From the NCBI RefSeq assembly GCF_023055435.1, contig NW_025963779.1:65968001-66032000 (forward strand): a stretch of 64,000 bases of DNA, written 5' to 3'. Below the pieces are notes generated by a model. It saw only the letters and a list, made by a program, of their open reading frames with translations. It was not told the origin of the DNA and ran no database searches. Below, piece by piece: positions 649 through 59,819 of this stretch (the stretch's first letter is position 1; each line of letters starts with the position of its first letter). The position numbers were made by a program, and so were the translations under genes. The stretch is from Haliotis rufescens (lineage: Eukaryota).

Positions 649-843
649 CTCCAAGTGAAGATAGCCATGCGTCCCCAAGTCCGGGTCGTTTAGAACTGAT
701 GGCATCACATCTCGTTTCTTGCGTGAGAAAAATGCGATAGGGTGTTTCACAAACCCCAAAGATAAATTGAACAAAACGAATGTTGAATAAAAACAGCCCA
801 ATCCGAAAGAAATACACCTGAGAAAAAGGTCCTTAATCGCCAT
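649..843 (-). CDS. EPHX4: Epoxide hydrolase 4-like copy A, coding exon 1 only (rest lies left of the window)
   Basis: ATG at 843; 65 codons MAIKDLFLRC...[10 protein letters not shown] followed by a GTAAGT donor. Same 195-nt exon as copies B, C and D; hydrophobic N-terminal anchor followed by RKKR. Confidence 0.85.
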
Positions 844-1289
844 ACTTCCTGGTTGGGAAAGTCAAAAGTGCTCACGGGAATGAATAGAAACGAAGTTAGT
901 GCGACCCTGTTTTATATATGCGGCAATGCGCATGAATGGGCGGACTTTAACCCTTGTGGTTAGCTGTATATCATTGATAACACTGTAGATAGTAGTATAT
1001 GGATGTAGTGATTTCATGGATACATAGCTACATTGTTACGCGAACAATGTCCAATTGGAACCACGGAAAGAAAAGATAAGATTAAGTTCTGCTCTTCAGG
1101 TCATAATATATCGGTTTGATCCATTTCAATGTTTTTCGCAGCCTGTGATTCCGTGTAATCAACTTTTTATTAATTTTCATGTGTACCTTGATATATAATA
1201 AAACATATTCACTTGTCACCTGTGACAACCAACGGCCAAGAAATTAGTAACCTATGACGCGCCGTTTTACAAGTCATTCCCTTTTGTAT

Positions 1290-1790
1290 AATATCAATAA
1301 TTTATTCATTGATATTATAAAATAGGGAATATATATCTGTGTATATATCGATATCACAAATTCACCTTTAAGATATAAATAAATCACTTCTAGGTTCATG
1401 AAAATAATGAATTCTACCTTAATGTCATACTGTAGTAAATGATAAAGTTAATTAAAAAGTGTCTACAGTATTGTCTGTCTCGCCTTTCTTGCATAAAGTA
1501 CATTTGATATACTGATTTGGGAAGGGGAATTATTAAAAAATAGATTTAATGAATTTAAGCTGTTAAATTAAACGTGGCAGTCTGATAATAAGTTTAAAAT
1601 TACCCGCACTCCTTGTCTGCAATCAATAAATTATTTTGTGATAGATCTATCTAAAACTTGAATTTGTGATCTCAATAAATCATTTTGTGATACCTTAAAA
1701 TCGAATTTGTTATATAAATAAATCATTTTAAAATCTAATAATCGAATTTGTGATATCAACAAATCATCTAAAAATCGAATTATCTCTGAA
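1290..1790. repeat. AT-rich element with degenerate tandem units (AAATCGAATTTGTGATATCAATAAATCATTT-like)
   Basis: About five degenerate units at 1620-1780 and an inverted-orientation unit (GATATCACAAATTC) near 1350. Confidence 0.5.
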
Positions 1791-2484: not shown

Positions 2485-2639
2485 CAGGAGGCAGTAGGGA
2501 GAACAAAAGATCTTGTGGTGAAATCCATGCGCGAGGGCCCTGTGCTGAGCTGACAAACATAGCAACATAATCAGAGCGAGCCTGGGATTCGAACACACTA
2601 TTTAGATTTGTGTTAATGCCTAAGTTACACAACTCGGAC

Positions 2640-3096
2640 TTTTCGAACTCACGCAGCTGGTATCGCCATGAGTACCAGAACTCTAGGTGAGGTGAGGTGA
2701 AATGGGGTTTTACGTCGCGTCCAAGATTATTGCACTTATATAGCGACGTGCATGTACGTGTGTGTGTTTGTGTGGCTGCTTGTGCTAGTCCGGACTGATG
2801 CCGATTATAGTGCTAGCTCACTGAGATACCATGCCGTAGTTTAACATGAAAACCCCACTCAGACACAGTATCCTGACTCCGAGCCGACCAGTCCTTGTTT
2901 TAGCCCCTTAATGCCGAGCGCCAGACAGGGTAACAACAAGTACGATCTTATCACGTCTTTTGGTACGACGCGGCCGGGGATCGATCCCCGGACCTTCCGC
3001 TCTCCGGGAGGACGTTCTACCACTAGACCACGGAGGCGGTCCCAGAACTCTAGGAATCCTTGCACAAACAGCTTCAGCAGCTGTGAATTTGTTCCC
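2640..3096 (-). pseudogene. Orphan degenerate EPHX4-like exon 2, split by a SINE
   Basis: Translates to LFVQGFLEFW / [10 protein letters not shown], versus [20 protein letters not shown] in gene B. The flank 3100-3855 matches intron 1 of B (about 19930-20760). Confidence 0.85.
2688..3041 (-). mobile_element. tRNA-derived SINE family 1, full length
   Basis: Head GACCGCCTCCGTGGTCTAGTGG...GATCGATCCCC (A/B boxes), (CACCT)n tail, 13-bp TSD CCAGAACTCTAGG at 2675-2687 and 3042-3054. Confidence 0.9.
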
Positions 3097-3855
3097 CTGA
3101 AACATGGTGCAGTATTTACAGCAGTATACATTTAGTTTCAAACCAAATGAAACTTATCATGGAAAACTTCTTTCCAGGCGCTGGGCATTAAAGGAAAGAA
3201 AGCAAGGACAGCTCGGAGTCAGTATAATGTTTCTAAAATATCTCGTATCTATTTCTGGCATTATCTCGTTATATAAGCATTATAAGTGCAATTATCTTGA
3301 AAGCGACGTTAACCCCGTTTTCACCTCACCTCATATATCCTGTCAAAGACTTAGTTAACATGTGTCATTTGATAACAAATGTAATTACATACACTGATAA
3401 AATCGGTTCCCATCATTTGTGTCGGATAAAGCCGATTGTCGGATTAACGAGTGTCGGATTAACGAGACTTGACTTGTCAAATATCACGATAAACCATCAT
3501 CACAATTGTACATTTGTATACGTACAATATTATAGGAGGTACAATTAGATTTGAAAACGCACAGGGTGAGGTTACACATGATAGAAATAAAGCCATCAAA
3601 TCTACAGGTAGCTCACTATACATAGCTCCACATTGAAAACACAGAACCTGGTACATTATCTCCATTCTGCCATGAAAATATCAAGCCCAAATTTTGATGT
3701 CAGCGAAGGCAATGAGTACAGCAGCATCGTCTGATTTAAACCTTAAATAGTTTGTCGATTAGCAGCGGTGAGAATCATCTTGAAATAATGAATGTCACTT
3801 TGTACGGATAATACACTGAAACATTGGTTTAACATGAATATACTTTACTCACATA

Positions 3856-4190
3856 CACTCTTCAAAAAATGAAACGCACAGGTAGTATGTAGTTCATTAC
3901 ACAAAAATCCGGTATATAATTTGGATATATGTTATTGGAAAATGTTGGTGGCCTGATATTCGACAAACGGTGCGTCTAAACGCAGCCATTGACGATTTGC
4001 ATTGTCTTAAACGGCATTGTTTTCACACTTGTTAAAAATGTCATGGAGGAAAACAGTAGTGGCTATAAAAAGGCAAGCATATGCCAATAATGTGTCATTC
4101 AATTGTCAACATTTTTCAAGTTTGACAAACTTAGCGCTGCCGATCGGAACAGCGCCATAGGACGTATCCAAAGAGGGGAATCGCAATAAC
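3856..4190 (+). mobile_element. Tc1/mariner 5' fragment
   Basis: TA|CACTCTTCAAAAAA end and N-terminal transposase-like peptide KLSAADRNSAIGRIQRGESQ near 4127-4186. Confidence 0.55.
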
Positions 4191-4869
4191 TGAATTATAT
4201 CACAGAGGCCTGAAACAAAGTAAGTTGGGACCAGACAAACCGGAAGTTGAAAATAGATATGTCAAGGTACGATAACATGCAACCAACCACGTCACCAAGC
4301 CTTACTACCCGATACATTTGAGCAGATGAGTGCTGGTGACTTCATTTCTTGTTCACTTTCAACCGCAGGTTGCCTGCCAACTGCAATGTGATAGATTGTA
4401 TCATCTACCTCTGTGGGCAGGGGCCACAATCATGCCATCGTCTGGAAAGAATGGATCGATCTTCACACAATCAATCATTGTTTGTGAGTTTGCCATGAAA
4501 AGACAAGACAGGTTTGCCATGACAAGGGAGATAGTTCTGTGTATATACATCTTCTTTATTATAATGAATGCGACGTTTCGGTGTAGATACTAACTCCATT
4601 ATCAAGCAAGTGATGTACAGGAATGTGAAGTAGGGAGGTTATATACGTGTGGATAATTGATGTTTATGCAATGTAGAATGATGATAGATTGATGTTTACA
4701 GATAAGGCTTAAGTATGAAGCCTGATGATGTGCATTGGAATAAACAATAAGGAATCAGTGTAAAAACAGTACTACACAGTACTGACTGAAGGTGTGGATG
4801 GGTTGTTATTACAAACATTATTGTCCAATCTGAGTCTATTCCTATGATCTACTATCTTCTTGTGGTTAG

Positions 4870-6907: not shown

Positions 6908-9900
6908 TTACTTAAGAAATTCGGTCATGTGTTTGTTAACTTGGTCCGGAGTGTCCATCATGACCCAGTGACTGGCCTCCTCTATGTATTTGACTGTGTA
7001 ATTATCTGCAACAGTATTACCAGCCGCCCCCAAGGCCTTCTCCAGGAACGCGTCCTTGCAGCCCCAGATTGTCAGGACAGGACAAGAGATCTTTGGGGTT
7101 TTACTCGGAGGGAACCGGGTTAAAGCTCGATAATAATTGATAGAAGCTGTTGCAACACCTGGATGCAGGGAAAAAGGGGTAAACATGAAAAATACAGCGT
7201 TACATATATACATAAAATCAATCTGCATGAGTTGCAGTGCCTCAAGCTAAGGGTTTCCATATGACCAAGAAGGTTACTGATCTCAAACGACTAATCCCAG
7301 CTCCAGGCAATACTAAAATACTAATCCCCCTGTGAGGATCCCAAGGGTGGAATAAGTACCTAGCAACCTGTGCTTGCAGCATGAGGCGGCTAAAGGGCCC
7401 GGGTGGTTAGGCTAGGTGCCTTGGTTGATTTTGTGCCATCATGACTGGAAGGTGCGAGACGTTGTTCATAATTACAATCACTGGTTTGGTTTTTGCAGAC
7501 TTGATTATTTACAGCCTGCACTCATATTTTAAAAACAATATCTAAGTATAAACCTAACATCCTAAGGATATATGGGCCACTGACCCCTGAAAGAACAAAC
7601 AATCCTATTTCACGGATCAATTCTGATGCCATAATTCTGTTACAGGTAATGTTTCATTTGACCCATGAGTACCCTCAACTACTCGTAGCTTTTGACTGTC
7701 CATTGTCTAATGTCAGTATATCCATGTAAAGTTTAAATATAAATTGTTAACATTAATATTGACAATTCATCTCGATATAACGACTGAATACTGAAAACAA
7801 CATAATCATCTACTCCACCACAGGTTCATAGCCACAACAGAGGTGACTCCACTCTTAACAACTCTCAAGCAATTCATTGAACCAGGGACAGGGCCCATAT
7901 GGTGACTATCCGTTTTGCAGATACCCCGGCCAAGTTAGCAGACAGCATAAACAAACAAAAGACAAGGTTAAATACACTGCAATGTACTCCCTTCCTACCT
8001 CTTCATTGAAATCGTATAGGCCACAGATACACCCATTTGTTGCCATTAGTTAAAAGAAATACAATAAAGAAACTTGAATTCCTCCATAGTTCAGGGCAGG
8101 CACTGAAAGTTCCATTCATGTAAACGGTGTCGGATGACTGAAGCAATCTCATCATGTGCAGTTGTTCAAAAAGTGACATACTCAACCACTGAACGCCAGC
8201 CATGGTTTTTGATGTGCAAGGATCTGACCATATCATTAAGAAGCAAATATTGCAATAACAACTCCACTAAATATAAAGAGTTAACTAAATGACCCTCAAT
8301 TACTGCTCTAATCATTATAAACAAGCTCACTTTAATCATATTTTCATATCAGATGTGTGTTGTGATAAAGAGCTTGTTTACGAGCCATTACTGGGCTTCT
8401 ACTCAGTAAACACATACACGGGTATGTTTGAGGTAGGGTGGCCTTTCACTAAGAAATGATGACAATCCATTTGATCGAGGCATTTATGGCACAAGTCTCA
8501 TTTTCTACATTGTAACAAAAAATTGTAAAATATATAATCTGTATTCTGGAAGATTCCATTCCATTGTGATGTACACCTGTCAGACTGCAAAATGTGGTAC
8601 CACATGTTGGGCCTTGACACCAAGTAGAATAACGATAACTGTAGTGACATTACTCACCCACAACCACCCTAGCAATGTATTGAACCCAGGACATGCACAC
8701 CCTTGACATGCACACTAATGTAGTGAAACCTACAGCGTGGGTAGGTCAAAGTCCTCCTCTAACTGTCACAACACAATTCAAATAGTGGTACTCGATTACT
8801 ATTATCATAGTTGTACTCCTATAACTATTATCATATTTGTAACCACTGCAGTTACCTGGTCTGGAGAAAGCATATTTGTAGGCCTCAATCTCGTCTATCT
8901 CTGTGGTGACCCCATACTGACGCCCCGTCAAGATTCCTTCTAGAGCCCACATGTCATTCAGTCTCAGTGACCACTCAGGAAGAAATGGAACTTGGAAGAA
9001 GAACACGTACCTGATACAGAACAAGAAAGTCAAATATTTACAAAATCACACTCCTCCTCAAAATATACCTATTATTATTTTCCTTTACCACATTACTGCA
9101 TACACAAATTCATAACGATACATGAAGAAATCCCTGTATACTAGTATTGGACAAACAAATGATTTTCAATATGACTGCCAGTGTGTCCATGTTCAATCTG
9201 GAAAAGTCTTCTTTGACAGTTTTATTGAGATAGGATCATATACCTTTAATCATGAAATTAATGTGTCTCCCTTGCGGGCGTTAATTAAGTGGCCTCGAAT
9301 TTACCGGTGATCAACTTTTACAAAATGGTGTGTCCACTGTCATCAGTATGCGGATTTGTCCGTGGGAACTTTCGTTTATTCAGTGATCGTATATATATAT
9401 AAATTTTATATAAAAATATGCCATGTAAGACAGAAATACACATCAGTTCGAAATTATAATAAAGACCTATGTATGGAGAAAATGGATGGTGGATTTATTA
9501 TGTTTGTTGATAAATTTAAAGTAGCCTTCTGTGAACACGACAATGAACAGTTCTGTTCCATGCTTTCGGGTACAACAGACCATAAAAACGAACTCAATCA
9601 CACCCAAGGACCGGATATGTCACTTTGAGACTCTATTTGGAGGCATGGGTGATATTGATGACTATATTGATTTCCATACAACTATCGACGACTTTGTAAA
9701 TTCATTATCCGATTAACTTATTAATAATTCGGTTGACAAATATTCATTTATGGTACTGATTTAACTGAATCTGAACTCTTGGGAGCCATCCATGATATGA
9801 AATCTGGAAAATCACCTGGATATTGTGGTTTGCCAATCGAATTTTTAAATAATATACCCCAACCCTGTATCGAAATGTTATTAACATTATATAATGTTGT

Positions 9901-12900
9901 CTTGCGGACGGGAATTTATCCCGACCAGTGGACATATGGTGTTATCTTGACTATTTATAAGAAAGGACGATCCAATGATCCAGGAAACTATAGACCTATC
10001 ACATTACTGGAAGTTGTAGGGAAAATATTTGCAAAACTTATCTGATCTAGATTAACATCTGATCATGCAACATGAAGTTCGCTTGTTGCATATGGGAAGG
10101 ACGTGTGGCCGAATAATCTCATGCGTGTAACGTTGTGCCGTTAAAATCCCCAGCACCAAGCCTGTTCTACCATTGTAAGAGATGGCTTCCCGCATCATCA
10201 CATCATGACAATACCATCACCGGCGCGAATACCTGGTATTGTCGTACTTGTAGAGGTGGCCGTGGTGGTTCTTTTACGCAAGTGACGTAGCCTTATGGGA
10301 CCGCCTCCATGGTCTAGTGGTAGAGCGTCCGCCCGGAGAGCGAAAGGTCCGGGGTTCGATCCCCGGCCGCGTCATACCAAAAGACGTTTAAAGATGGTAC
10401 TTGTTGTTACCCTGTCTGGCGCTCGGCATTAAAGGGCTAAAACAAGGACTGGTCGGCTCGAAGTCAGTATACTGTGTCTGAGTGGGGTATCCATGTTAAA
10501 CTGCGGCATGATATCTCAGTGTGCTAGCACTATAAAATCGGCATCAGTCGGGACTAGTACAAGCAGCCACACACACACACACATACACGTGCATGCACGT
10601 CGCTATATAAGCGCAATAATCTTGAACGCGACGTTAAACCCAATTTCACCTCACCTCTCCGTAGCCTTATGTATCTGCCCTGTGGTCTCGTAGTGATACG
10701 TAGTCGACCGTATCTGGGAAGGTCCCGTGTTTCCACTGTGTCTGATAGCGGTTCCACGGTCTTGAAATGGTGCTTTGTGCTATGTGAGAAGGCTGGATAC
10801 AACTGAAGATGATGCTACTGATTGCAGTTGGCCGACGGCGTTGTTGCGTTTGGCTTCCGTCAGTCGTGACATGTTTTCGTTGTTCACTTGCTGCAGTTTA
10901 ACATGAATACCCCACTCAGACACAGTATACTGACTCCGAGCCGACCAGTCCTTGTTTTAGCCCCTTAATGCCGAGCGCCAGACAGGGTAACAACAAGTAA
11001 CATCTTTTAACGTCTTTTGGTATGACGCGGTCGGGGATCGAACCCCGGACCTTTCGCTCTCCGGGCGGACGCTCTACCACTAGACCACGGAGGCGGTCTC
11101 AATTGTGGTATTAACTTTGTATGGATGTCGGCAACACTATCAGATATTAAGTTTTCTTTACTTTTAAGTTTCATTTTTTGCAGAGTATATATAACATCAC
11201 TTGCAATAATTCCATGACGACAATTTTAGGCTAAGGGTCGACACACTATTGTTTGGTGACGCATTATTTTCAAGAATTACACTAAACAAACGTTCAGCAA
11301 CAAAAATCCCAGAAGTTTCAAAATAACGTAAAACTTGACCTTATCTCAACATGCTCAAGAGAGACTCAAATATGTTCCAAATCGTATCCCATTGTTCCAG
11401 TGCATAACAAATATCAACTTTTCAAAGACCTAAAAAAACGTTCTCTCTTAAGCTTGCAATGACCTTTGGGGCTAATCATGCTTTAGGAAGCATCCTCTTT
11501 GGTCACGTTGGACAACAGTTACCATGGCTACAATTAGTAGGTAAAAGATGCATATTCGTGTATCGTGTACCTTAAGCGTGATTAGCAAATGGAGAATAGA
11601 CTATATTTTTGTTACCAAGATTTCTTGAACTGTGCCAAACTCTTCTCCATGTAGCTCCTAAAGGCGTCTAGAGGGGGACAGTTCATCATAATCAGTTTGT
11701 CGACCAGTTCAGGGTGCATGGCAGTGAATGTCCAGGCAATGGCGCCACCCCAGTCATGGGCTACCAGCACACATGATTTGTAACCTAGAGGACAGAAGCA
11801 GATCAGATGTACTGTACACAAGAAATACATCAAAATAAATCTTTTGTGTATCTGAATATTTATCATGGTTATCACACTTAATTATATTTCATTTCGCAAA
11901 TCTATACCGATACACGGACATAACTTTCAAAATTAGTTTCTTGTATTAGTTGTATGATATTAAAGAACGAATTGAGAACACATTACAACCAGTAGTGAAG
12001 TATGCCAGAGGGTGTTATTGCCGCTATGTTATGATCTTGAAGGATCTTGAGGGATGATAGTGTTAAGATAGGAAATTTCAAAGTTGACGTTTTTGGATCA
12101 GTGTTGCGTAATGCCACGATTTGTCAAAAATTAATTCACACGACGAGGCATATTACATATGTGTCTCCCAGTGGCGATAGGAAAGAGTCTGTCCCACTCA
12201 TCTTTCAGCGCCTGGCCAAGTTTAGACAACGGGGCCGGCGGCCTGACGTTCACGCACTCGTTTCCGTATCATGTCCCAGACGTGTTCAATGGGGGAATTG
12301 CTGGCCATGGCATTCTATGGATGTTGTGCTGCTGGAGGTGAGCATTGACGATTCGTGCAGGGTGAGCACGGGCGTTGTTGTCCTGAAAGACTAAATGTCG
12401 ACCCACACGCCTTGCAAATTGGACACCAAAGGGTGTCAGCATGTTGTCCCAATAGTACTGTCCAGTGACCCTTTCTTACACAATATGGAGTGGGGTTCGC
12501 TCAGTCATAATAATGCCACCCATAACCCCATAATAACCCTTCGACCGCCAAATCTGTGATAAGGTCTCAGATTAACATTGGCTTGACGTTCATTTCGACG
12601 TCGATAGACACGATCATGCCCATCAAGGAAGTGCAAAGTCTCTAGGGACTCACTTAAAAACAGGGGTGGTCGGGTAGCCTAGTGGTTAAAGCGTTACCTC
12701 GACACGCCGAAGACCCGGGTTCGATTCCCGACATGGGTACAATGTGTGAAGCCCATTTCTGGTGTCCCCCGCCGTGATATTGCTGGAATATTGCTAAAAG
12801 CGGCGTAAAACCATACTCACTCACTCACTTAAAAACATGACACGTGGCCAGTTTCGATGTGTAAAACATTGACGTCTGTTGGCACTATGGCGATTTCATA

Positions 12901-23536: not shown

Positions 23537-23640
23537 AAAACTAGGAGACTTAATTGTGATGGTAATTGATAAAAGCTATTGTAGCACATTGGGACAGGAA
23601 ACAAGGGGTAAACATGGAATAAACAGTGTAAAATAGAATA
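23537..23640 (-). pseudogene. Relic of EPHX4-like exon 6 start and intron 5 end
   Basis: Reads (G)ATIAFINYHHN* versus [11 protein letters not shown]; acceptor CAG mutated to AAT; upstream matches the intron 5 ends of B and C. Confidence 0.65.
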
Positions 23641-24706: not shown

Positions 24707-24739
24707 ATTGGAAAATACATAACATCTGCAATGGTGTCA

Positions 24740-41300: not shown

Positions 41301-41324
41301 GAGAAAAATGTCTTTAATCGCCAT
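29358..41324 (-). CDS. EPHX4: Epoxide hydrolase 4-like copy C, complete 6-exon gene, 330 aa
   Basis: Exons 41130-41324, 36942-37066, 36149-36261, 35209-35377, 33405-33544, 29358-29608. All GT-AG, 993 nt with stop. HGFPE, HDWGG, NYYR, WGCKD and the His (ACHQV) are intact. Two N gaps lie in introns. Confidence 0.9.
30572..30747. other. Assembly gap (176 N)
   Basis: Run of N. Confidence 0.99.
31250..33129 (+). mobile_element. 5'-truncated CR1/L2-like LINE (RT and 3' UTR)
   Basis: YRPVSL, QSGFQAGHST and GVPQGSVLGLFLFLVYINDI motifs, frameshifted; ends AATAAAATATGTTTAAACT. Confidence 0.85.
34284..34440. other. Assembly gap (157 N)
   Basis: Run of N. Confidence 0.99.
36385..36690. repeat. Degenerate ~22-bp minisatellite in intron 2 of C (paralogous tract in D at about 56310-56500)
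   Basis: Recurrent CTTTCTGATAG-like units. Confidence 0.55.
37336..38735 (+). mobile_element. Full-length Tc1/mariner element with frameshifted transposase
   Basis: Imperfect ~28-bp TIRs (TACTCAACAACAAAAATTCCTGTGACA and its reverse complement ending 38735), flanked by TA. Transposase 37631-38591 has MPRLSENELLRAIGML, VLFTDES, FQHDNARPH and WPARSPDLSPIEH. Confidence 0.92.
38759..39620 (-). mobile_element. Internally deleted Tc1/mariner element
   Basis: 24-bp TIRs TA(C/T)TCAACCGCAAAAGAAACGCAA with TA flanks; SGRPRVTT N-terminal half fused to the WPSLSPD C-terminus. Confidence 0.9.
39700..40712 (+). mobile_element. 3' fragment of an RLE-type (R4/Dong/NeSL-like) LINE
   Basis: EGFLFAAQDKSLPTRN, ETVQHIISEC, ENDKYKILWN and IEFSVPFD motifs; (TAA)n tail. 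Confidence 0.65.
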
Positions 41325-41939: not shown

Positions 41940-42830
41940 ATATAATGTTACATCAAAACTAGCAGACTGGTGACCCTATCTAACCTAACGATATGACAGC
42001 TGTGTCATAACATAGTATATCGCAAAGCGATGCACCGATACCGTTTGGAATCATCGCAGCCCTAACCAGTTTATCATGTATGGTGTTTCAGGAAGACTAG
42101 GTGGGACACACTGGTAATTGTTATGCTGCTTCGTGAACACAGTTAAAACAAAATATACAAATTAGTGTAAATCACTATTAAAAAAACACTTATAATTCTC
42201 TAAACCTATTTTTCATCAACTAAACATTAAACAATAATATTTTACCTATATCATTTTAATAAGCGATAGTAACATTGATCAATAGGAGAGATTTAACAAG
42301 CTGTCGTTATCTTTGACGCTGTGACATCACAAAAATAGGTGCCATTTTTGGCCAAGTCTGATTGCTCCCGACAGAACGTTGAATTGCATAACATGACAAA
42401 TAGCTCAACAGTGTGGACAGTAGGATTCTGTGGCATCATGTCTGATGGCCACATTAAAGCTACACGGTGTTGAGAAGGTTCGTGTGACTGCCAGGGATGG
42501 CATCTGTTTTGTTCCTATGGTTCTGTATCGTCCCCCCTTGTGGTAGGCCCTTTGTGCACATTACTATTAGGACAGTTTTATTTTTAGGCTGTTTGATAGT
42601 TTTACAAAAAAATCAAGTTTCATTACTTCACACGTTTCTGAAAATGTCACTAAGATCTCCAACATAAAAAAAAACATGCCACACTTCAGAGTTAGTGAGT
42701 ATGGTTTTACGCCGCTTTTAGCAATATTCCAGCAATATCACAGCGGGTGACACCAGACACATTCAGAGAACCTACGACATATCTGAGACTTGTCTCCATT
42801 TTGTACCTCCATTTTGATCATTTGACAATA
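41940..42830 (-). pseudogene. Orphan 3' UTR / downstream flank of a lost EPHX4-like copy
   Basis: Colinear similarity to the downstream flanks of B (6170-6800), C (28770-29170) and D (60000-60610, reverse); no coding exon remains. Confidence 0.7.
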
Positions 42831-46850: not shown

Positions 46851-46984
46851 GTCAGGGTGATCTCCCATTAGTTACACATCCCATTTGCCATACACTTCTA
46901 TATTCTCAGCCTTGCGGAGGCCAGGGGGGGGGGGGGGGGGGGCAACGTCGAGGTACGCTGTCAATTCAAACTACCTGGGACAGC

Positions 46985-47941: not shown

Positions 47942-50597
47942 GTAAATCATTTGCACAGTGCTTCATTCTGCTTGTTACCCACTGGGAGCCGGGCTAGTAT
48001 TGGACCCCTGCAAGCAGTGATAGTTTTAAGGGTCGACTGATGGGAATCGGGTTGTCAGGCTCAGTGACTTGGAAACTGCGTGACAGCGTACCTCGACGTT
48101 GCTCATAATATCTACCAGTGGTTTGCCTGACATGGATTCGGTTATTTACTTCAGTAATCCAGATCAGGTTAGGTCTTCATGTTTTTCTTAAGTGACGACT
48201 AAAATTGGGATCAGGTGGTTGAAACATGTGTAAAAGATGATCGCGGGGTTGATCGCTTCGAATTCTCAGGTAGTGTTGTCCAGAAACAATCGCGTGTAAT
48301 CATTGCTGAATGGCGCGTAAAACATTCCTTCACTTTAGCGTTTCAATAATAGTACAGTTGTATTTGCAGAGTTAGTATGCAGAACCAGTTTACATTTCAC
48401 ACTACATTACCTCTTTCACTGACGACAGCGCACCAGCTTACTTATGTCGCCACTTAGAACTGAATACACATATAACCCATGGTCTATGATTCTGACATGT
48501 TAACCGCCGAGCTGAAAGAGTTATCTTCCCCAACAGCACGCCCGCCTTCACTGTGTTTCTGCCCGGGACGGGGACAAGCCGTTGATGTTGATGGTGCACG
48601 GCATCCCTGAGGCGTTATATTGTAGGATAAAGCACGTCCGAGGGGTTTTTTAATATTTAAAACCCGTATCCGCGGGATAAAACCGAGACGCGTCAACCTC
48701 GAGGTTTTATCCCAAGGATAAGGATAAGGGGATAAAAACCCGCGGGGAAGTGTGTTATCTTACTTATAAACCGTAAAAAGAAACTTAAAACATTTTCAAC
48801 ATGTTTCAAACATACTTTTTCATGAACCTGAGGAAACGGTCGTAAAATATCTGTTGCTGGCGTACGATTCTTGAACAAGACGTTTTAAAAAGCATTGCGA
48901 CTTATCAGCATCCATGTAGCCTAGTAGTACCCTCAATGGGCTACAGATACAAACGTTGGAAATCCTTGGAAATATAAAGAAAATCGTTTGATTTTGCATT
49001 TCATTTCATGGAAGTTGTGTCAATAAAATACCCGGGATATTATAACGCATTTTCTAGCAAATGTGCCTGGAATATCCCATAACATCCAGGGAATAGTCTA
49101 TAACATACCGGGGACATTAAAACATCCCTGCTTATGAGATTTCACCCGACTGGAGAACAATAGGATGACGTCACTGGAGGTTTAAACCTGAGAAAGACTA
49201 CAGAAAAACACCCAGGCCAAGGCCTGATATAGAGATACTAGCCCCGGCTTCAAACAAACATCCTTCAATCTAAATCGGCTTTTATCCCAACGCAACCCAA
49301 CTCAGTCACCAAGTTATGCCGTTTGAACATAACATGCTGATAATTGCTTGCATATGGATATTTTGTACTGCCAGCTATATTGCGATGGTGTGCGTGTTTG
49401 TCACACCCCTCAAAAGAATTAGAATGTGCAAAAATAGCACATCGGCACATCTACAAAAACATTAATGTTGTTCTAGCTATACCACGGTAACGTGGAAATA
49501 ATCAATCTGGACCAGAAAAAACATATTCTTGACGGCATCAACAGCAGCACACAAAGTCCGGGTACGAAGACACACCACCAGCCAGGTCACAAAATGAGAC
49601 CATGTATTTCAAATTTATTTTTGTTTGTGACCATATGGACAACTGACTCGGAGGTAAGAATTCACTGTTGGATTCCTCATTTCTCATTACTATAGTTGAA
49701 AGCGATGCACTTCATGTAAACTACATACGTTCGCCAATAACACTTCCTCTCCAAGTAGATAATATTTTAGAACATCGAAGATGGATGTGTTATTGAATTT
49801 TCTATTTTAGTGCTCAAACTTGAAGCCCCTGATGTCAGTCACTGGCTTGTCTGGCCAGGATTCAGTTATTAATGTAGGCTTCCGTAAGATGGCTCAAATA
49901 TTGCTGATTGTGTCGAATGAACTCATTCACTCTAAACGGTCTTATGGTCATAAACCAAGTTCAACTTGATCTACCCAGCATCTCTGGGGGAGAAGTTGAA
50001 ATAACTGAAGCCGGATCCATCCCATACATTTAGTCATTCATGTGAGACTTCCGCCAATATTACTTTTAGAGCAACTGGATGCAGCGCTTTTTAAATCAGT
50101 ATTCTATTAATACCGATCTTTAGGCTTTATTATTTCATATACATATTGATAGCGTGAATAGGCGACCAGGGACTGATGAAGTGTGTCCTGCATATGGCGT
50201 CTGATTCTAATCACCTGACGACGGAGGGGGCTGTCACAGGTGACAGGTAAATATGTTAAGAGACATATGTGAACATCAATGAAAATGAATTAAACACGTC
50301 CCATTTTAATTCTGGAAACCCAAAAGTCCAGAAACTCTACGGTCGTTGCCCAATCTCGGTCAAAGGTATTTACAAAATTAAACATGCTGTTTTCATGGGA
50401 ACATACCAAGGAAGAAAAAATTAAAAATAAATTGTTCAAAAACTCAATATTTACACTATGTCGCCCATGGGCCTGATCACCTGCATATTAGGGGGTAGAC
50501 CGTTGGTTGTCACAGCTGACAAGTGAATTTGTTTTATTATGTGTGTTGTCATTGTCCTACAGTTAATAACATTGGTCAAAGTTTTCGCAGTACTGAA

Positions 50598-50661: not shown

Positions 50662-53600
50662 ATGACGATTAAAGGAATTTTTCTCAGATGTTTTTTCTTC
50701 GGACTGGCCTGTTTTTATTCAACGTTCGTTTCGTTCACTTTATTTGTGGGGTTTGTGAAACACCCTATCGTATTCTGTTCACGAAAGAAACGAAATGTGA
50801 TGCCATCAGTTCTGAACGACCCGGACTTGGGGACGCATGGCTATCTTCACTTGGAGGTGAGTCAAGAAATCATTAGAGCTTTACTCAACCCTGTACATTT
50901 GATTTATTCTTTGCAAATTATGTGTGCTTCTGTTCTTAATTATGCAGACGTTTTTACGTCTTTACTGTCAATTTAGATTTCACAACATAAATTTTACAAA
51001 GTAGGGCAACACTGGTCTCGGTTTACAAGAGCGTGCAGTCAACAGACTTATCACTATTCTTACGCGTCAATAAGCTGCTGAGACATATTAATACACAATA
51101 TTGATTTTATTATATTAATCTAAGATATTATGATGAACATATATGTAATCATTAATGACATGATTATCATTTTCACATTTTCCAAGGTGTATGTATAATT
51201 GAAGTAATCGTTATCAACATGAATTTCCATAAACGTTTCTACAGAAAACTTTTTAAAATATCAATGTGACCATAGTTACATGTGTACCCACAAATGCATG
51301 CTCCCAAACATCAAGGTTCATATGTGGTGTAATCACAAGCGCACAACATTTTTGTACAGGCGAGTGCAGTCGCGACAGGCTTATCGCTATCATGGATACC
51401 GGTATATTGTGGACTTAGGACTAAAATTGAGCAGAGTCACGGTCACTTGTGCTCAGTCATATTCTATACGTCTTAGTCATCAACATTGGGACATACTGAT
51501 TTCCGATATTAATTGTATATTGATAATCTAAGTTATTATTATGAACATAATCATTACAGCAATTTCACTGGTGTATACATTTATATAAACTGACGGCCAA
51601 AAGAAAATGTCCATAGCTATAAATCACTCTAGTTTAAAAACAATAAAGATAGATGCATGAAGTAATATGTTTTTAAAAGATCAAAATCTCAATGAAATCA
51701 ACATTTATGATGACAGTCATACGGCATCTGATGTTGGTATGCCAGTTGCCCGCATTGAGGTGGGGTAGCAAAAACAAGCTTTCAACGTAATGGACAAAGG
51801 TCACACATCTAAAAATCGCTCAAGTTCAATGACACGTTTATTTGTCATGCTAAAATGGGGTTGTTGCCCTATGAGTACCACGTGAACCTGTAAATTGGTG
51901 CATTTACATGTCTACGTAACCTGTCAATACATTGCATGTGTATTTGCTAACACGGCTTGTATCATCATCATGACTCAGCATGACAAGCAGTTTCTACAGT
52001 GTGTTTAGTATTAGAATGATCAGTTCAGCGTGGTAAAACACACAAATTGAATGTACATGCATAAAGTCTACAACTCTAAAGCGAAAATAACTGTATAATA
52101 ATCAAAGTTTCGGCGGATAATCAAGACTGGTTATTTTCTTGCATTGACAATGTATATTATTTATAAATGTTTTAAAATATTGTTAATTTATTAATATTAC
52201 TAATGAACCAGGTTTGATTGTACTGATGTTAGGTATGTACGTATAGTGTATACAAGAAATACATGTAGTTATTACAATCTAGTGGCAAATCTAAACTTTC
52301 GCAGTCCTCCCGAACTGAACATTTTATTTCCATCCTTGTTTCATTCTTCTGGAGAAGTCCAACAACAAGTACATCGGGGTTTTGAGGCGTTTTCTAATGT
52401 AGAACCTTACATTGAAGGTATATACATGCCCATTGAGGTAGATTAAACTAGTCAATATTGTGTAGAGTTTTTAATTTTTTTAAACGATTTCTTAATTTGT
52501 TGATGAATACACGTACATTTTTTTGTAATCGCAATTCATTGTAGCTGTTGCAATTGTAACTTTATTTATGTGCGGATTGACTAATACCTTCAGTGAAACC
52601 TCTTATTATAATTAGGTAAGTTTTCTCTTGAATACACAATGTCACTCGCCAATCAGAGAGTCGGCCTAAATTACATTATCTTCCCGAGGCAAGAGCGTTA
52701 ACTGACTTTAAAAGTCCAGTTTCCACCCTTGCCGAACCAGGCTGGAATTCCTGTGCTCGATCGTAGCGCCACCAGTGGCAAATGCATGTGATACGAGAGG
52801 TGGAATCTGATTGGTCCATATGGGAGAGGCATAGAATGGACATAACTCGTTATAGCCACTGGCGGCGCTACGATCGAGCCCAGGAATTCCAGCCTAGTTC
52901 GGCAAGGGTGGAAACTGGACTTTTATAGTCAGTTAACTCTCTTGCCTCGGGAAGATGAAATTACAGGTGAGTCTACAATACCTGCTCCCTCTTTCATATT
53001 TGATCAGTCTGCCACACCAAGCGTGAATAAACAGTTACACAGGTCTTGCTTTGGGCAAATACCTAGCAGGTGTACATATTTTTTGTGGATACATGTATTA
53101 CATATCTCCTTAATTGTCGATAAATTAGGCACAAAGACACAAAACAAATTCAAATTTATCTTCTGTGTGAAGCACAATGACGCAAGAACTGAAAAGCCAA
53201 GTATTACGTGGATTCACTCACGGGAGCAGTGAGTGAGTTGTGTTTAACGCCACTTGTAACACATATTCCATGTACATCACGGCGTTTCAGCTTAATGTGG
53301 GAGGAAAGCCCGAAGTGATGCAGGTCTTAGACGGTGAAACCCACGAGCATGGGTATGGTGCTGACAAACCTAGAAACATTATTGGGGCGAAATCATAGGT
53401 TTCTGGCATGACCAAGGGACGCAACTCTTTACAGCGAATCGCGGCGCGTTATATTAGCCGGATGGGCCACCTATGCGCCCCACTCAAGGGAGCCATACAT
53501 ATTGTGTGTTGTGTCCTTTCCTATGAAAACTGTGGCACTCAAATATTTTTAATTGTAGTAAATACAAAATTGAATAAAACTTGGTAACTCAAAGTTAATT

Positions 53601-56600
53601 GTCGTGTCTCCGATAGATATGATTGGCAGTTTATTGACAGCTTTGGTTAATAGGGATTATTAAATCACTTTCTCTTATTCGCTTGATAATTAGATTTTTT
53701 TTAGTTATAAAGATAAAGACCCGGAGTTATAGACCCTTTCGAGTCTATTCTCAAGCATGATTTATTTTCCGACGACATATGTTGAATGAAAGGAATTAAA
53801 AAGAAATTCGTTTTATAATAATATTTTACAAAACTGTTTATGAACAAATTCCAAAACTTATACAACCGTTCTACATTTCGTTCCACTGGACGTGAATCAT
53901 TCAACTCGCTGGGGAAGGTCGAAAGTCGTATACGGCTTTGAAGTGCATATACAGTGTATAAGTATAACTATACGCATAATACATATTCATGATGACCAAT
54001 TAATCTCTTTCCTAATTCGAATGAGCACATTCTGAATATATAAACTTGCAAAATGACCGACAAAATCCAATTCTTATTTGTACAATACAAACGTTCATGT
54101 AGTGCCTGATAAAACAGACAATAACTGAATAATCTAAAACGTATCACAAAATTCCTGCGGTGTCTCCGTGGACGTTTTGCGACAAATACTTTTCCGACGT
54201 GTAAGTTTCTGGAGAACAATTACAACCCGTAATCCCCAATTGGTTGTTACGAGGCATACGTGATAAAGGAGTTTAAACAAATTTCTATCACAAAGGACAA
54301 GAGATAAATTTTAATTGCCAATTTTATTTATTATGTCTTAGGGCACTATGGTTACCGGTCCAGATTTTACGTTCACATATCAGCAATCAGAGAAGAAGTT
54401 TTCAATGTTCATCATGTCCATGACTGTAATACCAACGAGATAGGAAAACACATTCACAACCAAAGCGTGATGTTGCATGGCTCATCATACTAGCTTTTAA
54501 AGATATATGCTGCCCTGGGTTTGTGAAATACTGGATTGATCAGTCAGAGGTTTGAAGTCACAATAATTACCTCTGATTGAAACAGCTTATTCGACGGCCG
54601 CAGCACTGAGTTTCTAACAATAACTAAATTACGTGTGACGATACATATCAGGTAGAGTGAGTGAGTGAGTATGGTTTTACGCCGCTTTTAGCAATATTCC
54701 AGCAATATCACGGCGGGGGACACCAGAAATGGGCTTCACACATTGTACCCATGTCGGGAATCGAACCCGGGTCTTCGGCGTGACGAGCGAACGCTTTAAC
54801 CACTAGGCTACCCGACCGCCCCCCATATCAGGTAGAAGACACAATATAAATTCGCTAAGGAAGGGTACTACACATTTTGTGGGCAACAGACAGCTTGAAA
54901 TATGGATCTACACTATCCTTAGCTGCGATGTTATAGCTACTGAGTCACCACGAAGGCGACTATGCTTGTCGTAAGAGGCGACTAACGGGATCGGGTAACA
55001 CTTGCCTGGTGTTCCTGTAATAAAACAACATGTTCACTGTAAAAGTGATAAACTTGGATACATTATAAGAATTATGTTAAACGTTCCATGCAAATTGTAA
55101 CATCTTGACTATTTCAACTAACGGGATCAGGTGGTCAGGCTCGCTGACTTGGTTGATGCATGTCGTCGTATCCCAATTGTGTGGATCGATGCTCATGATA
55201 TCAATCAATGGATTGTCTGGTCCAGATTCGATCATTTACAGACCGTCCTCATAATAGCTTGGATATTACTGAGTGCGGCCTTAAACAACAAACAAACAAA
55301 ACAAACAATGTTTTAAGACGATGATCAGTGGTCTCCCTTAAATTCTAACCATTGCTATCATGGCTTATTGAAAAACTATTCAAAACGTTGAACCCTAGCT
55401 GACCCCGCTAACACTGTTTTAGTCATTTGTCATGTTAATCAAGATTTAGTTAATTCTGTAAATACAATTTTAATTTTTTTTATGAACATGTTAAAGTTTG
55501 ATAGGATATGTGAAAGTGAAAACATGAAACATTTTATAGTTAAGAAATGAAGAACTTATTCTACATAAAAAGTTTCATGTTTGTGACACATTTTGTTTGG
55601 AATCAAATTTATGCTGATGCAAATACTGCAGCATGTGTACGGTGCACTTCCTATTTCAGGAGGTAAAGATCCACTACGTTGCCCAGGGCGACGAGACCAA
55701 GCCGCTGATGCTGTTTGTCCATGGATTTCCAGAGTTCTGGTACTCATGGCGATACCAGCTGCGGAAGTTCAAGAAGGATTACAGGTGAACAGGACAGCGT
55801 CCATTGACCCATATACTATGTTTACTGGGTCTATTCAATGATCATGGTGATGTAACATATTACATGTAACCCGTGAAGATCCGGGGTATAACAGACCTTA
55901 AGCAACCCATACTTGTCGTAAGAGGGGACTAACGGGATCTGGTGGTCAGGCTCGCTGACTTGGTTGATGCATGTCATCAAATCCCAATTGCGTGGATCGA
56001 TGTTCATTATGTCGATCACGGGATTGTCTAGCCCAGACACGATTATTTACAGAGCGCCTTCATATAGCTGAAATATGGCTGAGTACGGCGTTAAACAACA
56101 CACACACAAACATGATGGCATGTTGAATAACATTTATATCAGTACCTGGGGATACTGGTGGTGCAGCTGTGTAAGGCGTAACTCTTCACTGTGATTGGGG
56201 GCATTATCAGAAACCGATGATCATGTTTCTAGGTCTGTCAGCACCACACCCGTACTCATGGGTTTCTCCTCAATGGTATACGCCATTGAGACCTACACAT
56301 CAAACTCAGAGACCTGTTTACATCCTTATCAGACAGTAATCATCCTTATCAGAGAGTAGCCTGCCCTATCAGAAAGTTACCAAGCGTATCCAATAGTAAA
56401 AGAGTATCCACCTTTCATATAGTTACCCACCAAATTAACACTACGATCAGATAGTTACCAGCTGTTATATTTACCAGTCTTACCAGAAAGATACACGCAC
56501 GATCACACAGTTACTGATTCTGCAAATGTGATAAATCATGTACTGTTGCTCCAACTGTGACCTTTGTTTTTCTTTCTTTATTTTTATCACATGTCAAGTT

Positions 56601-59600
56601 TGAAGACCTGTGTGTTTCTTTTCCCAGGGTTGTGGCCATTGATTTGAGAGGCTATGGTGACTCCGACAAGCCTTCCGGTGTTGCCAATTACCAGATGTCC
56701 AAGATTGTGTCCGATCTTAAACAAGTCATCCCTGCTCTTGGTAACATTTAATTTACCCCTATGTGCATTCCGGGTATGAATTCTTTTAAAGCTATTTATG
56801 TCACAAAATGTGTGGAGGTAGATTGGTAAAGATATAATTACATATCAATGCCGCTCCAGATGTCGTACAATGTAATCAGTTATGCTGTACAGTCAAGGAT
56901 AAACATTAAGGTATTATATTGTATACAAACATAGATATCGACTCTGAAGTCAAACATTTGTAAGCAAAAAGGAAATAAATGTTGCGAATTTAAACGACAG
57001 TTTGCAATTTGATAAAATTTGGAAATCTCGGAGAGGCGTATGTAAATCTGTGAACGGATTTAGATATTTCAACTTTATATTTGCTGTAACATTTACATTT
57101 CCAAAAAGAATAGGGTTTCTTCTTATAACAGTGCAGTTGGTACAAGTAAAGAAACAGTGGAGTGCGTCTTCATAGTGGAAGTCACAAGACCAACGGTTAC
57201 GAGTTAGTGCTAAAACACGACTACGAGGGTTTGGTTGAAAATGTAACACCGCGAGCGATCTTTTACATTTTTAAACAAAACCGAGGAGTTATTGAACTAG
57301 ATTATGAACCATCTAAATGCAGGAAAATCCAGAAAGAATAGAAAACATAGGGGTACCTTTCAGTAAAACAATACAGTAAGCGCGGTATACAACGAATTCG
57401 ATGACAGCGAACAGAGGAAGACTATGTGCAACATGCAGACAACTGAAATTAGTGACATGTAAGATTAAGCACCGATGTTTATCACCTGTCGCGGTGGCTT
57501 AGTGGACAAACAGTTGCAGTTCCATTCGCAACATGGAATTTTCATTTAAACAAATCGCGACAATTAACCAGTCAAAAGTCTACATTAGACGCTCATTAAA
57601 AAGGATGTTTTTAAATCTTCAGTTAATTTAGAACGTCGAGGGCATTCTCCCGGAATACTAGCCACTGAGTTTGTGGGCTTTCCACTATTTAAAGTAACCT
57701 TAGGAAATTGGGATGACGTCACAATTGGTATATGAATGGCCCCCATCTAGGACTTAAGGGGCGAGACCGAGGACTTAATTGATTGGGTGATCAGGATCGG
57801 TGACTTGGTTATGGCGTGTCATCGTATCCCGACGGCAGAGATTGCTGCTCATGAATATTAATCACTGGATTGTCTGATCGTAACTCATTTTTTCTAGAAA
57901 ATCTTCAGGTAGCTTAGATAGCAACAAACAGTAAAATAAACAATGCATCTACCTCTGTATCCCCCTCCATGTAATCAATGCAGTGATCCATGGACATGAC
58001 CCAACTGTAGTTTCAGTTTGGAAGTGTTGTAAACAAGTCAACGAGGTGCTACCTGTTGCCTTTTAATTAAGAATTCGAGTAAGATCTGCTGATTGTACAT
58101 TTCTTTCCTAGAGGATAATGAAAAATATGTTACATATTTTGTCTATGTCATAGAATTCTCAGGTCTACTTTATCATAGTATATATGAAATATTTTCTTTA
58201 GAAGGTATTTCAAACATATTTATGTATACCTGCTAAATCAACCATCAGCCCACACAACGGAAATACACACTATTTATATATATATGTGTGAATTGAAATA
58301 AAAATTGCTCCTGTCCTCCAGGCTACAGATCCTGTGTGCTGGTAGCCCATGACTGGGGTGGTGCCATTGCCTGGACATTCACTGCCATGCACCCAGAACT
58401 GGTCGACAAACTGATTGTAATGAACTGTCCCCATCCAGGCATCTTTCGGAGCTACATGGAGAAGAATATGGCGCAGTTCAAGAAATCTTGGTAACACAAA
58501 TATAATTTGACGCATCAGTGAGAAAATGAAGTCCAATGCAATTCCCTATTTTGACTTGTACCATATGTTCCCATGTTTTTTCAGATGAACAGTTGACTTG
58601 CCTTTGCATGTGTTTGTATAACCTTTCTGGTCAAATAATGGTAATATAATATTACAGAAAACTGCTTCGCCTGTGCTACAGAGCTACAGAGGCTATATTT
58701 TTACGACACTGCCAGCGGGTTATTTTCCGAGTTATATAAAGTGAGTGGTATTTGCTTCAGGTACGTATTCTTCTTCCAAGTTCCATTTCTTCCCGAGTTG
58801 TCACTGAGAGCAAATGACATGAAAGCTCTGGAAAGAATCTTCACGGGGCGTAAGGGTGGTGTCACCACGGGCAAATGCAGCACTGACGATATAGAGGCCT
58901 ACAAATATGCTTTCTCTAGACCAGGTAAATGTAATGTACCTGTGTAATGGTTACAAATTATGATATTATGGTAATAGGAGCACAGCTGTGATGACCTGTT
59001 GGAATTGTTTTGTGGCGGAAGGGGAGTACTTTAACCTACTTATTCAGCAGATATCATTGCATTATTTTACTTGATGTCAAGGCTGTACATGTGGAGTTGT
59101 CCTAGGTTCAATAGATTGTCAGGGAGTTTGTTGGGTACATGTATTTGGAATAAGAGCACATTGTAAGGTAACTGAGTATGACGATTATCAGTATTTATTC
59201 ATGTTATATTAAGATGAATTGTCAGTACTGATGTCCACAAATAATACTTTAACTTGTCTCGATGTCTTACATTCTCATCCTTCAAGAGCTTCATGTAGTT
59301 GTGGGTACTGATTAGTCAAATGACCATTTGCCTATGGACATTATTGACCAGGTAACATATATACATAGGATCCGTACTGTTTATAATCAATTGTTCAAGG
59401 GGTTTTAGTCCCATGGCCCTTAGCTTGTTCTTGTTCTCAATGCCCCACTCAGCCAGCATCTTGGACACCTGGAGCCAACCCTGGGAGTTTCAGCTTGTGA
59501 CACTGCGACTCATGCAGATTGTTTGTATGTATTCAACACCATGCTAAGCTTTTGTTTCCAACCTCCAGGTGCTGCCACAGCTGCCATCAATTATTATCGA

Positions 59601-59819
59601 GCTACAATGCGGTTCCCAGCGAGAAGGATCCCGAGGATCTCCTGCCCGGTGCTGACCATCTGGGGCTGCAAGGACACAGCCCTGGAGACAGGCTTGGCCG
59701 CTGCTGCTAGTGCTGTTGTAGACAACCACACAGTCAAATACATAGAGGAGGCTAGTCACTGGGTCATGATGGACACTCCGGACCAAGTTAACAAACACAT
59801 GACTGATTTTCTTAAGTAA
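50662..59819 (+). CDS. EPHX4: Epoxide hydrolase 4-like copy D, complete 6-exon gene, 338 aa
   Basis: Exons 50662-50856, 55660-55784, 56628-56740, 58322-58490, 58761-58924, 59569-59819. All GT-AG, 1017 nt with stop. HGFPE, DLRGYG, HDWGG, NYYR, WGCKD, ASHWV. Confidence 0.93.
52678..52956. mobile_element. MITE-like foldback with ~105-bp inverted arms
   Basis: ATCTTCCCGAGGCAAGAG...AGCGCCACCAGTGGC is mirrored by GCCACTGGCGGCGCT...CTCTTGCCTCGGGAAGAT. Confidence 0.9.
53230..53482 (-). mobile_element. SINE family 4 copy
   Basis: Similar to 27295-27540; B-box region deleted. Confidence 0.7.
54657..54823 (-). mobile_element. tRNA-derived SINE family 2
   Basis: Perfect 13-bp TSD CATATCAGGTAGA at 54644-54656 and 54824-54836. 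Confidence 0.92.
54953..55308 (+). mobile_element. Family 3 retroposon, split
   Basis: Head piece 54953-54996 and body 55117-55308 with (CAAA)n tail. Confidence 0.75.
55870..56110 (+). mobile_element. Family 3 short retroposon, full length
   Basis: CCCGTGAAGATCCGGGG head through GGCGTTAAACAAC tail. Confidence 0.88.

What the first reader, a model, noticed from the sequence alone, without database searches (positions are those of the whole stretch)
649..59819. Birth-and-death array of membrane-anchored epoxide hydrolases: three complete copies, a fourth exon 1, and relics of about four more
Seen: three complete genes and a fourth exon 1 share exon sizes and phases; A, B and C are head-to-tail on minus, and D is inverted, head-to-head with C. 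Established: HGFP oxyanion motif, Asp in DWGG, two cap tyrosines (WY at the exon 4/5 junction, NYYR), acid in WGxxD and the C-terminal His define alpha/beta-fold epoxide hydrolases. Inference: a lineage-specific, rapidly turning-over expansion, possibly for dietary algal epoxides/oxylipins or lipid-epoxide signalling in a grazing mollusc.
Basis: partly seen in the sequence, partly recalled or inferred. Interest (0 to 1): 0.72.

Follow-up and report, generated by a model that had tools for sequence, protein, structure and literature searches.

The report
Abalone tandem epoxide hydrolase gene array
An abalone chromosome carries four intact side-by-side copies of a gene for a likely membrane-bound fat-epoxide-splitting enzyme, next to an older sister gene and several broken leftovers; this is an ordinary gene-family expansion, and its possible use against epoxide-bearing kelp defence chemicals is untested.

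Summary
The array is real. B, C and D are complete six-exon genes. A is complete too, running past the window's left edge. All four keep every epoxide-hydrolase catalytic residue. A, B and C are identical to RefSeq 'epoxide hydrolase 4-like' proteins of Haliotis rufescens; D's RefSeq model has another first exon. Two genes of an older sister family (E, broken by a stop; F, intact) lie just to the right. Three genome searches found no intact exon outside this cluster. Three of the four in-window relics hold up. Spliced contigs match A, B and C; D shows only unspliced cover. The four copies form an abalone-only clade, so they are neither pan-molluscan orthologs nor haplotype duplicates. 'Rapid turnover' is overstated: four abalone species each have about four copies, A-D pair one-to-one with black abalone, genus-wide orthology is not rejected, and dN/dS is 0.25-0.42. 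A dietary role is plausible, since kelp ecklonialactones deter abalone feeding, but it is untested, and carnivorous snails also have several copies. Two look-ups found no earlier scan note on this.

The parts
649..843 (-). Gene A exon 1 (N-terminal hydrophobic helix). Exons 2-6 lie left of the window, down to G000:C1:65955823; whole gene intact, 338 aa
   Evidence: translation identical to P0156; spliced contigs match A at 23 of 26 listed exon sites
2639..4447 (-). Relic R1, family I: exon 2 split by a roughly 350-nt insertion flanked by a 12-nt direct repeat, with intron 1 and upstream flank; exon 1 not found
6908..22528 (-). Gene B, 335 aa; exons 22528-22334, 19912-19788, 17510-17398, 11784-11616, 9010-8856, 7158-6908; D155, Y202, Y262, D288, H316; Phe at the pocket position that is Ala in A, C and D
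   Evidence: same sequence as P0005; exon 1 contig joined to an exon 2 in 3 of 4 runs
23558..25239 (-). Relic R2 (weak): end of intron 5 plus about 30 nt of exon 6 (23558-23640) and an intron-1 piece (25099-25239)
   Evidence: the neighbouring 23365-23480 stretch is an interspersed repeat
29358..41324 (-). Gene C, 330 aa; exons 41324-41130, 37066-36942, 36261-36149, 35377-35209, 33544-33405, 29608-29358; D155, Y202, Y257, D283, H311; 8-aa cap deletion; Gln after the catalytic His
   Evidence: same sequence as P0003; spliced exon 4-5 contig in 1 of 4 runs; model pLDDT 96.9; Gln in 1 of 91 aligned rows and shared with the H. cracherodii partner
41953..43078 (-). Relic R3, family I: 3' flank and an intron-3 piece, no exon left
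   Evidence: 41953-42690 matched only this cluster in the genome
47486..49818 (+). Relic R4, family II (E/F type): intron 1, truncated exon 2 at about 48537-48611, intron-2 and 3'-flank pieces
   Evidence: 84.5% over 97 nt to F around exon 2
49594..49653 (+). Alternative first exon used by the RefSeq model of D (P0001, and P0154 in H. cracherodii); it would replace the membrane helix
   Evidence: locates it; a GT donor follows; one contig ends at 49651 and another runs through unspliced; no joint seen
50662..59819 (+). Gene D, 338 aa; exons 50662-50856, 55660-55784, 56628-56740, 58322-58490, 58761-58924, 59569-59819; D155, Y202, Y265, D291, H319; inverted, head-to-head with C
   Evidence: exons 2-6 equal P0001; only 3'-flank, intronic and 5' contigs seen for D itself

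Best explanation
This is a tandem array of four intact EPHX3/EPHX4-type genes, likely built by local duplication in the abalone lineage and since kept under purifying selection with slow gain and loss; the proteins are predicted to be membrane-anchored enzymes that turn fatty-acid epoxides into diols. Shown: gene structures, intact frames, catalytic residues, the abalone-only clade, dN/dS below 1, relics, spliced contigs for A, B and C. Inferred from the family: two cap tyrosines hold the epoxide oxygen, Asp155 opens the ring to form an ester, and the His-Asp pair activates water to release the diol; the N-terminal helix would anchor the enzyme in the endoplasmic reticulum. Inferred from trees: most duplications are about as old as, or older than, the split between North-Pacific and Indo-Pacific abalones, followed by local gene conversion (A to D, exon 6), later duplications and losses. 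Inferred, weakest step: the copies persist because changes in the cap and pocket broaden the set of lipid epoxides handled, dietary and endogenous.
For: Gene models. Residue-by-residue match to the solved epoxide hydrolase CH65-EH, E 7e-71, whose D101, Y148, Y209, D241 and H270 are the published catalytic residues (PMC6198070 passages). Model of C: pLDDT 96.9; best fold match CH65-EH, rmsd 2.0. Haliotis family I is one clade at 100/99. Six intact-length exon matches in each of three genome searches, all in this cluster (counts are lower bounds). dS 0.18-0.30 and dN/dS 0.25-0.42; core 0.16-0.26; cap 0.52-0.67 in 5 of 6 pairs. A-D exon 6 has 4 of 58 synonymous sites different against 34 of 177 elsewhere, p 0.038, inside a 402-nt tract at 95%. 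Subtype-specific pocket changes are shared between species. Reviews describe EPHX3 as an ER protein with an N-terminal anchor acting on fatty-acid epoxides (PMC7792612, PMC7696575 passages).
Against: No enzyme assay and no tissue data. EPHX4 itself had shown no activity on any substrate tested (PMC7696575). The cap diverges faster than the core in ortholog-like pairs too (median ratio 1.6 over 14 pairs against 2.0 over 15 paralog pairs), so cap divergence is weak evidence of new specificity. Deep branches inside family I are unresolved. The conversion p-values (0.037, 0.038) are marginal, uncorrected and chosen after seeing the data. No other vetigastropod was in the hit list (best 120 of 285), so 'abalone-only' cannot be told from 'vetigastropod-wide'. 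RefSeq models D without the membrane exon in two species. The runs laid are only guessed to be RNA.
Confidence: 0.78

Rival explanations
1. The array is a dietary counter-defence: the copies sit in the gut or digestive gland and open the epoxide ring of kelp and diatom oxylipins, including feeding deterrents.
For: Ecklonialactones A and B were isolated as antifeedants against Haliotis discus hannai and also occur in Egregia, Cymathaere, Laminaria and Eisenia; cymatherols carry epoxide rings (PMC4728519 section 2.1.2, part 1 of 2 read). Benthic diatoms make epoxyalcohol fatty acids (PMC7024367 passages). Grazing limpets and a chiton also have three genes each in the hit list. Pocket residues differ between copies. 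That ecklonialactones A and B bear an epoxide is recalled; the review only calls them tricyclic.
Against: No tissue, diet or assay data. The carnivorous Nucella (3 hits) and Babylonia (2 hits) also have several copies (their diets are recalled). EPHX3 is described as inactive on a generic xenobiotic epoxide and as acting on signalling lipids (PMC7792612). No dN/dS above 1 over whole genes or the cap.
Confidence: 0.25
2. One reading: A-D are young North-Pacific duplicates that replace each other quickly.
For: At least three relics in the window, a stop in E, more family-II relics to the right; a recent-looking pair in H. asinina; no strongly supported one-to-one pairing of A-D with Indo-Pacific copies.
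Against: North-Pacific monophyly rejected, p-AU 0.018. B groups with H. rubra and H. asinina copies at 77/60 and shares their LDAFRSY motif. A, C and D pairings with Indo-Pacific copies are not rejected (p 0.33, 0.17, 0.33). About four loci in each of four species. A-B, A-C and B-C protein distances exceed the F distance between H. rufescens and H. asinina.
Confidence: 0.2
3. The extra copies are redundant or kept for dosage: A does the ancestral job on endogenous lipid epoxides, and B, C and D drift under relaxed constraint.
For: A has the shortest branches. B and C have in-frame cap deletions, and C lost an aromatic residue kept in 90 of 91 aligned rows. Cap/core excess is modest against the family background.
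Against: Core dN/dS of 0.16-0.26 in all six pairs. B, C and D are intact in H. cracherodii with the same peculiar residues. B and C have spliced contigs.
Confidence: 0.3
4. Assembly artefact: uncollapsed haplotypes.
For: An 11-kb tandem duplicate at 99.8% lies 10-32 kb right of the window, so such artefacts may exist nearby.
Against: A-D proteins are only 80-91% identical, their introns align only in patches, mostly at 65-85%, and each has its own partner in H. cracherodii.
Confidence: 0.01

Closest known systems
Vertebrate EPHX3 (ABHD9) and EPHX4 (ABHD7)
   Same: N-terminal hydrophobic anchor plus alpha/beta core and cap; Asp nucleophile, two Tyr, His-Asp pair (PMC7696575 Table 1). Fish EPHX4 proteins are among the hits at 48-49% identity.
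   Different: One gene each in humans (reviews) against four plus a sister family here. No vertebrate EPHX3 was in my trees, so orthology to EPHX3 or EPHX4 separately was not tested.
RefSeq 'epoxide hydrolase 4-like' genes of Haliotis rufescens, cracherodii, rubra and asinina
   Same: A, B, C and F are identical to XP_046366748.2, XP_046366749.2, XP_046366750.2 and XP_046354764.2.
   Different: These are automatic names. D's model XP_046366844.2 uses another first exon. My four searches (listings only) showed no paper on the array.
CH65-EH (PDB 5NG7) and Bacillus megaterium epoxide hydrolase (4NZZ)
   Same: Best sequence and fold matches among solved structures; all catalytic positions align.
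   Different: The match starts at residue 58, so the membrane helix has no counterpart; 35-41% identity; microbial.
Limpet EPHX4-like genes (Patella SNE40_005080-82; Lottia ESP05421/05422)
   Same: Consecutive locus numbers suggest a tandem cluster that holds both NYYR-type and NYIR-type genes, like A-D beside F.
   Different: The limpet NYYR genes form their own clade; pairing with A is rejected. Adjacency is read from accession numbers, not from sequence.

Membership tests
alpha/beta-fold epoxide hydrolase | alpha/beta hydrolase core with helical cap | tested here: met
   Pfam PF00561 at 96-105 bits, cut-off 25.8, for B, C and D's RefSeq model; model of C matches CH65-EH, TM 0.78-0.90
alpha/beta-fold epoxide hydrolase | Asp-His-Asp catalytic triad | tested here: met
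   D155, D291, H319 (A numbering) in A-D align with CH65-EH D101, D241, H270; invariant in 91 of 91 rows
alpha/beta-fold epoxide hydrolase | HGXP oxyanion motif | tested here: met
   HGFP in A-D
alpha/beta-fold epoxide hydrolase | two ring-opening cap tyrosines | tested here: met
   Y202 and the second Tyr of NYYR align with CH65-EH Y148 and Y209 in A-D. Not met by the neighbours outside the finding: F has Ile at the second position, E has Phe and Ile
alpha/beta-fold epoxide hydrolase | hydrolyses epoxides to diols | not testable with these tools
   needs an assay
EPHX3/EPHX4 subfamily | single N-terminal membrane anchor | tested here: inconclusive
   Best 19-residue hydropathy 1.64-2.09 within residues 6-32, at most 1.20 after residue 60; helix 3-33 in the model. 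Prediction only; anchor not told from signal peptide; RefSeq D lacks it
EPHX3/EPHX4 subfamily | closer to EPHX4-like proteins than to soluble EPHX2 | tested here: met
   full-length hits to fish EPHX4 at about 1e-98 to 1e-101 (query P0002) against partial hits to EPHX2 chains at about 1e-33 (query B); different queries and databases; no EPHX1, EPHX2 or EPHX3 in the trees
birth-and-death multigene family | intact copies under purifying selection mixed with pseudogenes and lineage-specific gains and losses | tested here: met
birth-and-death multigene family | rapid turnover, copies grouping by species | tested here: not met
   A-D pair one-to-one with H. cracherodii; North-Pacific monophyly rejected; copy number about four in four species
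haloalkane dehalogenase and other alpha/beta hydrolases | curated NCBIfam cut-off reached | tested here: not met
   all listed models score far below cut-off for the 4 proteins scanned; library is prokaryotic

The most novel reading that the evidence does not exclude
Abalone expanded these enzymes as a counter-defence against kelp: copies with reshaped pockets (B's bulky Phe, C's Gln and shortened cap) open the epoxide of ecklonialactone-type and epoxyalcohol oxylipins that deter abalone feeding. Beside them sits an old gastropod paralog (F) that has traded one ring-opening tyrosine for isoleucine and may do different chemistry.
Probability: 0.2. Interest if true: 0.65.

Novelty: new member of a known kind. 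Interest (0 to 1): 0.33.

Why it matters
Invertebrate EPHX3/4-type enzymes are little studied and vertebrate EPHX4 had no known substrate in the reviews read. A natural series of four expressed-looking paralogs with species-shared pocket changes is a ready panel for finding substrates. If they act on kelp feeding deterrents, they would be a named enzyme counter-defence of a marine grazer, of use to kelp ecology and abalone feed work. Without that, it is an ordinary, already annotated tandem family.

Tried and rejected
The run search listed no holder on record as RNA. D-specific splicing was not seen; the spliced contigs laid on D match A, and only the top 15 joints of each lay were shown. Contig depths were not used to rank genes. 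The 23275-23477 match to D intron 4 was rejected as relic evidence in part because it holds a common repeat. The first self-BLAST of the wider region was swamped by a tandem repeat and redone after masking. Cap divergence as proof of adaptation was rejected as weak. The 105-row tree is the quick version, SH-aLRT only; unnamed metagenome rows were left out of it. For one search I dropped 6 of 34 rows: H. rubra 2062 (identical to part of 2029), H. rubra 2049 (looks like a chimeric isoform) and four bivalves; keeping 2049 changes the placement of B's partners. My first D coordinates and first E/F models were off by one and were corrected. The primary papers on EH3 and on the C. elegans enzymes were not held. 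A search for B. megaterium tyrosine numbers found nothing. Three papers opened for the ecklonialactone epoxide did not state it. No tRNA genes in the window. No supplements were read; abalone genome-paper supplements might list this family.
Full report
Observation. A six-frame motif scan and exon mapping give three complete six-exon genes in the window: B (22528-6908, minus), C (41324-29358, minus) and D (50662-59819, plus), of 335, 330 and 338 aa, with GT-AG junctions and equal phases. Five of six exons have equal sizes; exon 5 is 164, 155 and 140 nt. The fourth exon 1 (843-649) belongs to a complete gene A that continues 12 kb to the left. A, B and C are identical to RefSeq proteins named 'epoxide hydrolase 4-like [Haliotis rufescens]'; D matches a fourth model from exon 2 on, but that model starts with another exon at 49594-49653. 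The organism is therefore inferred to be red abalone.

Surroundings. Right of the window lie two genes of a second family, about 55% identical to family I: E (G000:C1:66032874-66037757, minus), with one in-frame stop in exon 5, and F (66135519-66140569, minus), intact and identical to P0059. Three genome searches, with exon 4, exon 2 and F's exon 6, each returned the same six genes; the exon-2 search also returned relic R1. These counts are lower bounds. After masking tandem and interspersed repeats, four relic regions remain in the window. R1 has an exon 2 split by an insertion with a 12-nt flanking repeat. R4 is a truncated family-II exon 2 with intron pieces. R3 is 3' flank and intron only, and its flank part matched only this cluster. 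R2 is small and sits next to a common repeat. A further family-II relic lies at window-equivalent 73.7-75.2 kb and again at 84.8-86.2 kb, inside an 11-kb duplicate at 99.8% that may be an assembly artefact.

Identity. Pfam gives Abhydrolase_1 well above cut-off. The best solved relative is CH65-EH, E 7e-71. Its published catalytic residues D101, Y148, Y209, D241 and H270 (PMC6198070, passages) align with D155, Y202, the second Tyr of NYYR, the Asp of WGCKD and the C-terminal His, all kept in A-D. A model of C, the most altered copy, is confident (pLDDT 96.9) and matches CH65-EH at rmsd 2.0. The N-terminus is one long hydrophobic helix, as described for EPHX3 and EPHX4 in two reviews (PMC7792612, PMC7696575; passages). 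The two-step ester mechanism is taken from those papers, not shown here.

History. In a 105-row quick tree and in 34- and 28-row careful trees all Haliotis family-I proteins form one clade (99; 100/99; 100/99), apart from limpet and Gigantopelta genes. Pairing A with limpet genes is rejected (p-AU 1.5e-29). A, B, C and D each pair with one H. cracherodii protein at 97 or more. Cluster look-ups name four family-I proteins in H. rufescens, four in H. cracherodii, four in H. asinina and six in H. rubra, of which two are labelled isoforms and two are identical where they overlap, so about four to five loci. North-Pacific monophyly is rejected (p-AU 0.018). B joins H. rubra 2040 and H. asinina 6826/6828 at 77/60, and pairings of A, C and D with Indo-Pacific copies are not rejected, nor is Indo-Pacific monophyly (p 0.14). 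So the array is likely old within the genus, with later local changes; this is inference, as deep branches are unresolved. F is one gene in each of the four species and groups loosely with limpet and heterobranch genes. An E-like protein was found only in H. rubra.

Selection and conversion. Among A-D, dS is 0.18-0.30 and dN/dS 0.25-0.42; the core gives 0.16-0.26 and the cap 0.52-0.67 in five pairs, 0.22 for A-D. The cap excess was significant in the four tested pairs with B or C (p 0.004-0.02) and absent for A-D; B-D was not tested. The cap also diverges faster in ortholog-like pairs of other animals (median 1.6 over 14 pairs against 2.0 over 15), so this is weak evidence of new specificity. 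Informative sites cluster by topology (17 of 30 neighbours alike, p 0.037), and A and D are unusually close over exon 6 (p 0.038; 95% over 402 nt including intron), which suggests local conversion. Pocket changes are shared across species: B has Phe where CH65-EH has the substrate-contacting Ala243, C has Gln after the His (1 of 91 rows), and an Indo-Pacific pair has Phe after the nucleophile.

Expression. The run search listed no holder on record as RNA, but contigs from guessed-RNA runs join exons. Laid on D, exon 5-6 joins with GT-AG ends appear in 4 of 4 runs from 3 studies, and the differing letters match A at 23 of the 26 exon sites shown; 97 further rows were not shown. B exon 1 contigs are joined to an exon 2 in 3 of 4 runs, all one study; the two listed have 0 and 1 differences. 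A spliced exon 4-5 contig of C with 2 differences appears in 1 of 4 runs. For D only 3'-flank, intronic and 5' contigs were seen.

Function. The best reading is a set of ER-anchored fatty-acid epoxide hydrolases. Whether the substrates are dietary is open. For it: ecklonialactones A and B were isolated as antifeedants against an abalone and occur in several kelps, and related kelp oxylipins carry epoxide rings (PMC4728519, section 2.1.2 part 1); benthic diatoms make epoxyalcohol fatty acids (PMC7024367, passages). That ecklonialactones A and B themselves bear an epoxide is recalled. Against it: no tissue or assay data, several copies in Nucella and Babylonia (carnivory recalled), and EPHX3's described preference for signalling lipids.

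Novelty. The genes are already automatically annotated. Four searches (listings only) showed no paper on the array, in a library that lacks most subscription journals. Two look-ups of earlier scan notes gave nothing relevant. It is a new member of a known kind: a real, moderately old tandem expansion with a concrete but untested ecological hypothesis. Interest 0.33.

Noticed in passing
G000:C1:66135519-66140569 (L018-L019), gene F: Intact family-II gene with NYIR in place of NYYR: Ile aligns with the catalytic Tyr209 of CH65-EH. 15 of 91 aligned proteins have this Ile, among them limpet, heterobranch and abalone genes that group at SH-aLRT 93, plus a chiton, an annelid and two neogastropod genes placed elsewhere. 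May be an old one-tyrosine variant with different chemistry.
   Followed up: partly
G000:C1:66032874-66037757 (L008), gene E: Family-II gene with one in-frame TAG in exon 5, HGLP, and neither cap tyrosine. The H. rubra protein P0060, which RefSeq labels an isoform of F, has the same HGLP and SWF features and no stop.
   Followed up: partly
window 49594-49653: RefSeq models of D in two species start from this 20-codon exon and skip the conserved membrane exon; it may be an alternative, anchor-less isoform or a model error.
   Followed up: partly
window-equivalent 73729-95890 and 118513-138586 (L008-L015): Tandem duplicates of about 11 kb at 99.8% and 98.5%; the first holds a family-II relic. 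Recent duplication or assembly artefact.
   Followed up: no
window 37544-38352 (+) and 39082-39702 (-): Open frames in intron 1 of C that look like Tc1/mariner transposase remnants (resemblance recalled, not tested).
   Followed up: no
window 18116-18571 (-) and 46841-47347 (+): Open frames resembling reverse-transcriptase and RNase H fragments of retroelements (resemblance recalled, not tested).
   Followed up: no
window 2017-2484: Tandem repeat of 76 nt, 6.2 copies, 98% matches; a 56-nt array of about 2.8 kb lies in intron 2 of A, left of the window.
   Followed up: no
window 2688-3038: The insertion in relic R1 starts with a tRNA-like head and is flanked by a 12-nt direct repeat, as expected of a SINE (class recalled).
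   Followed up: partly
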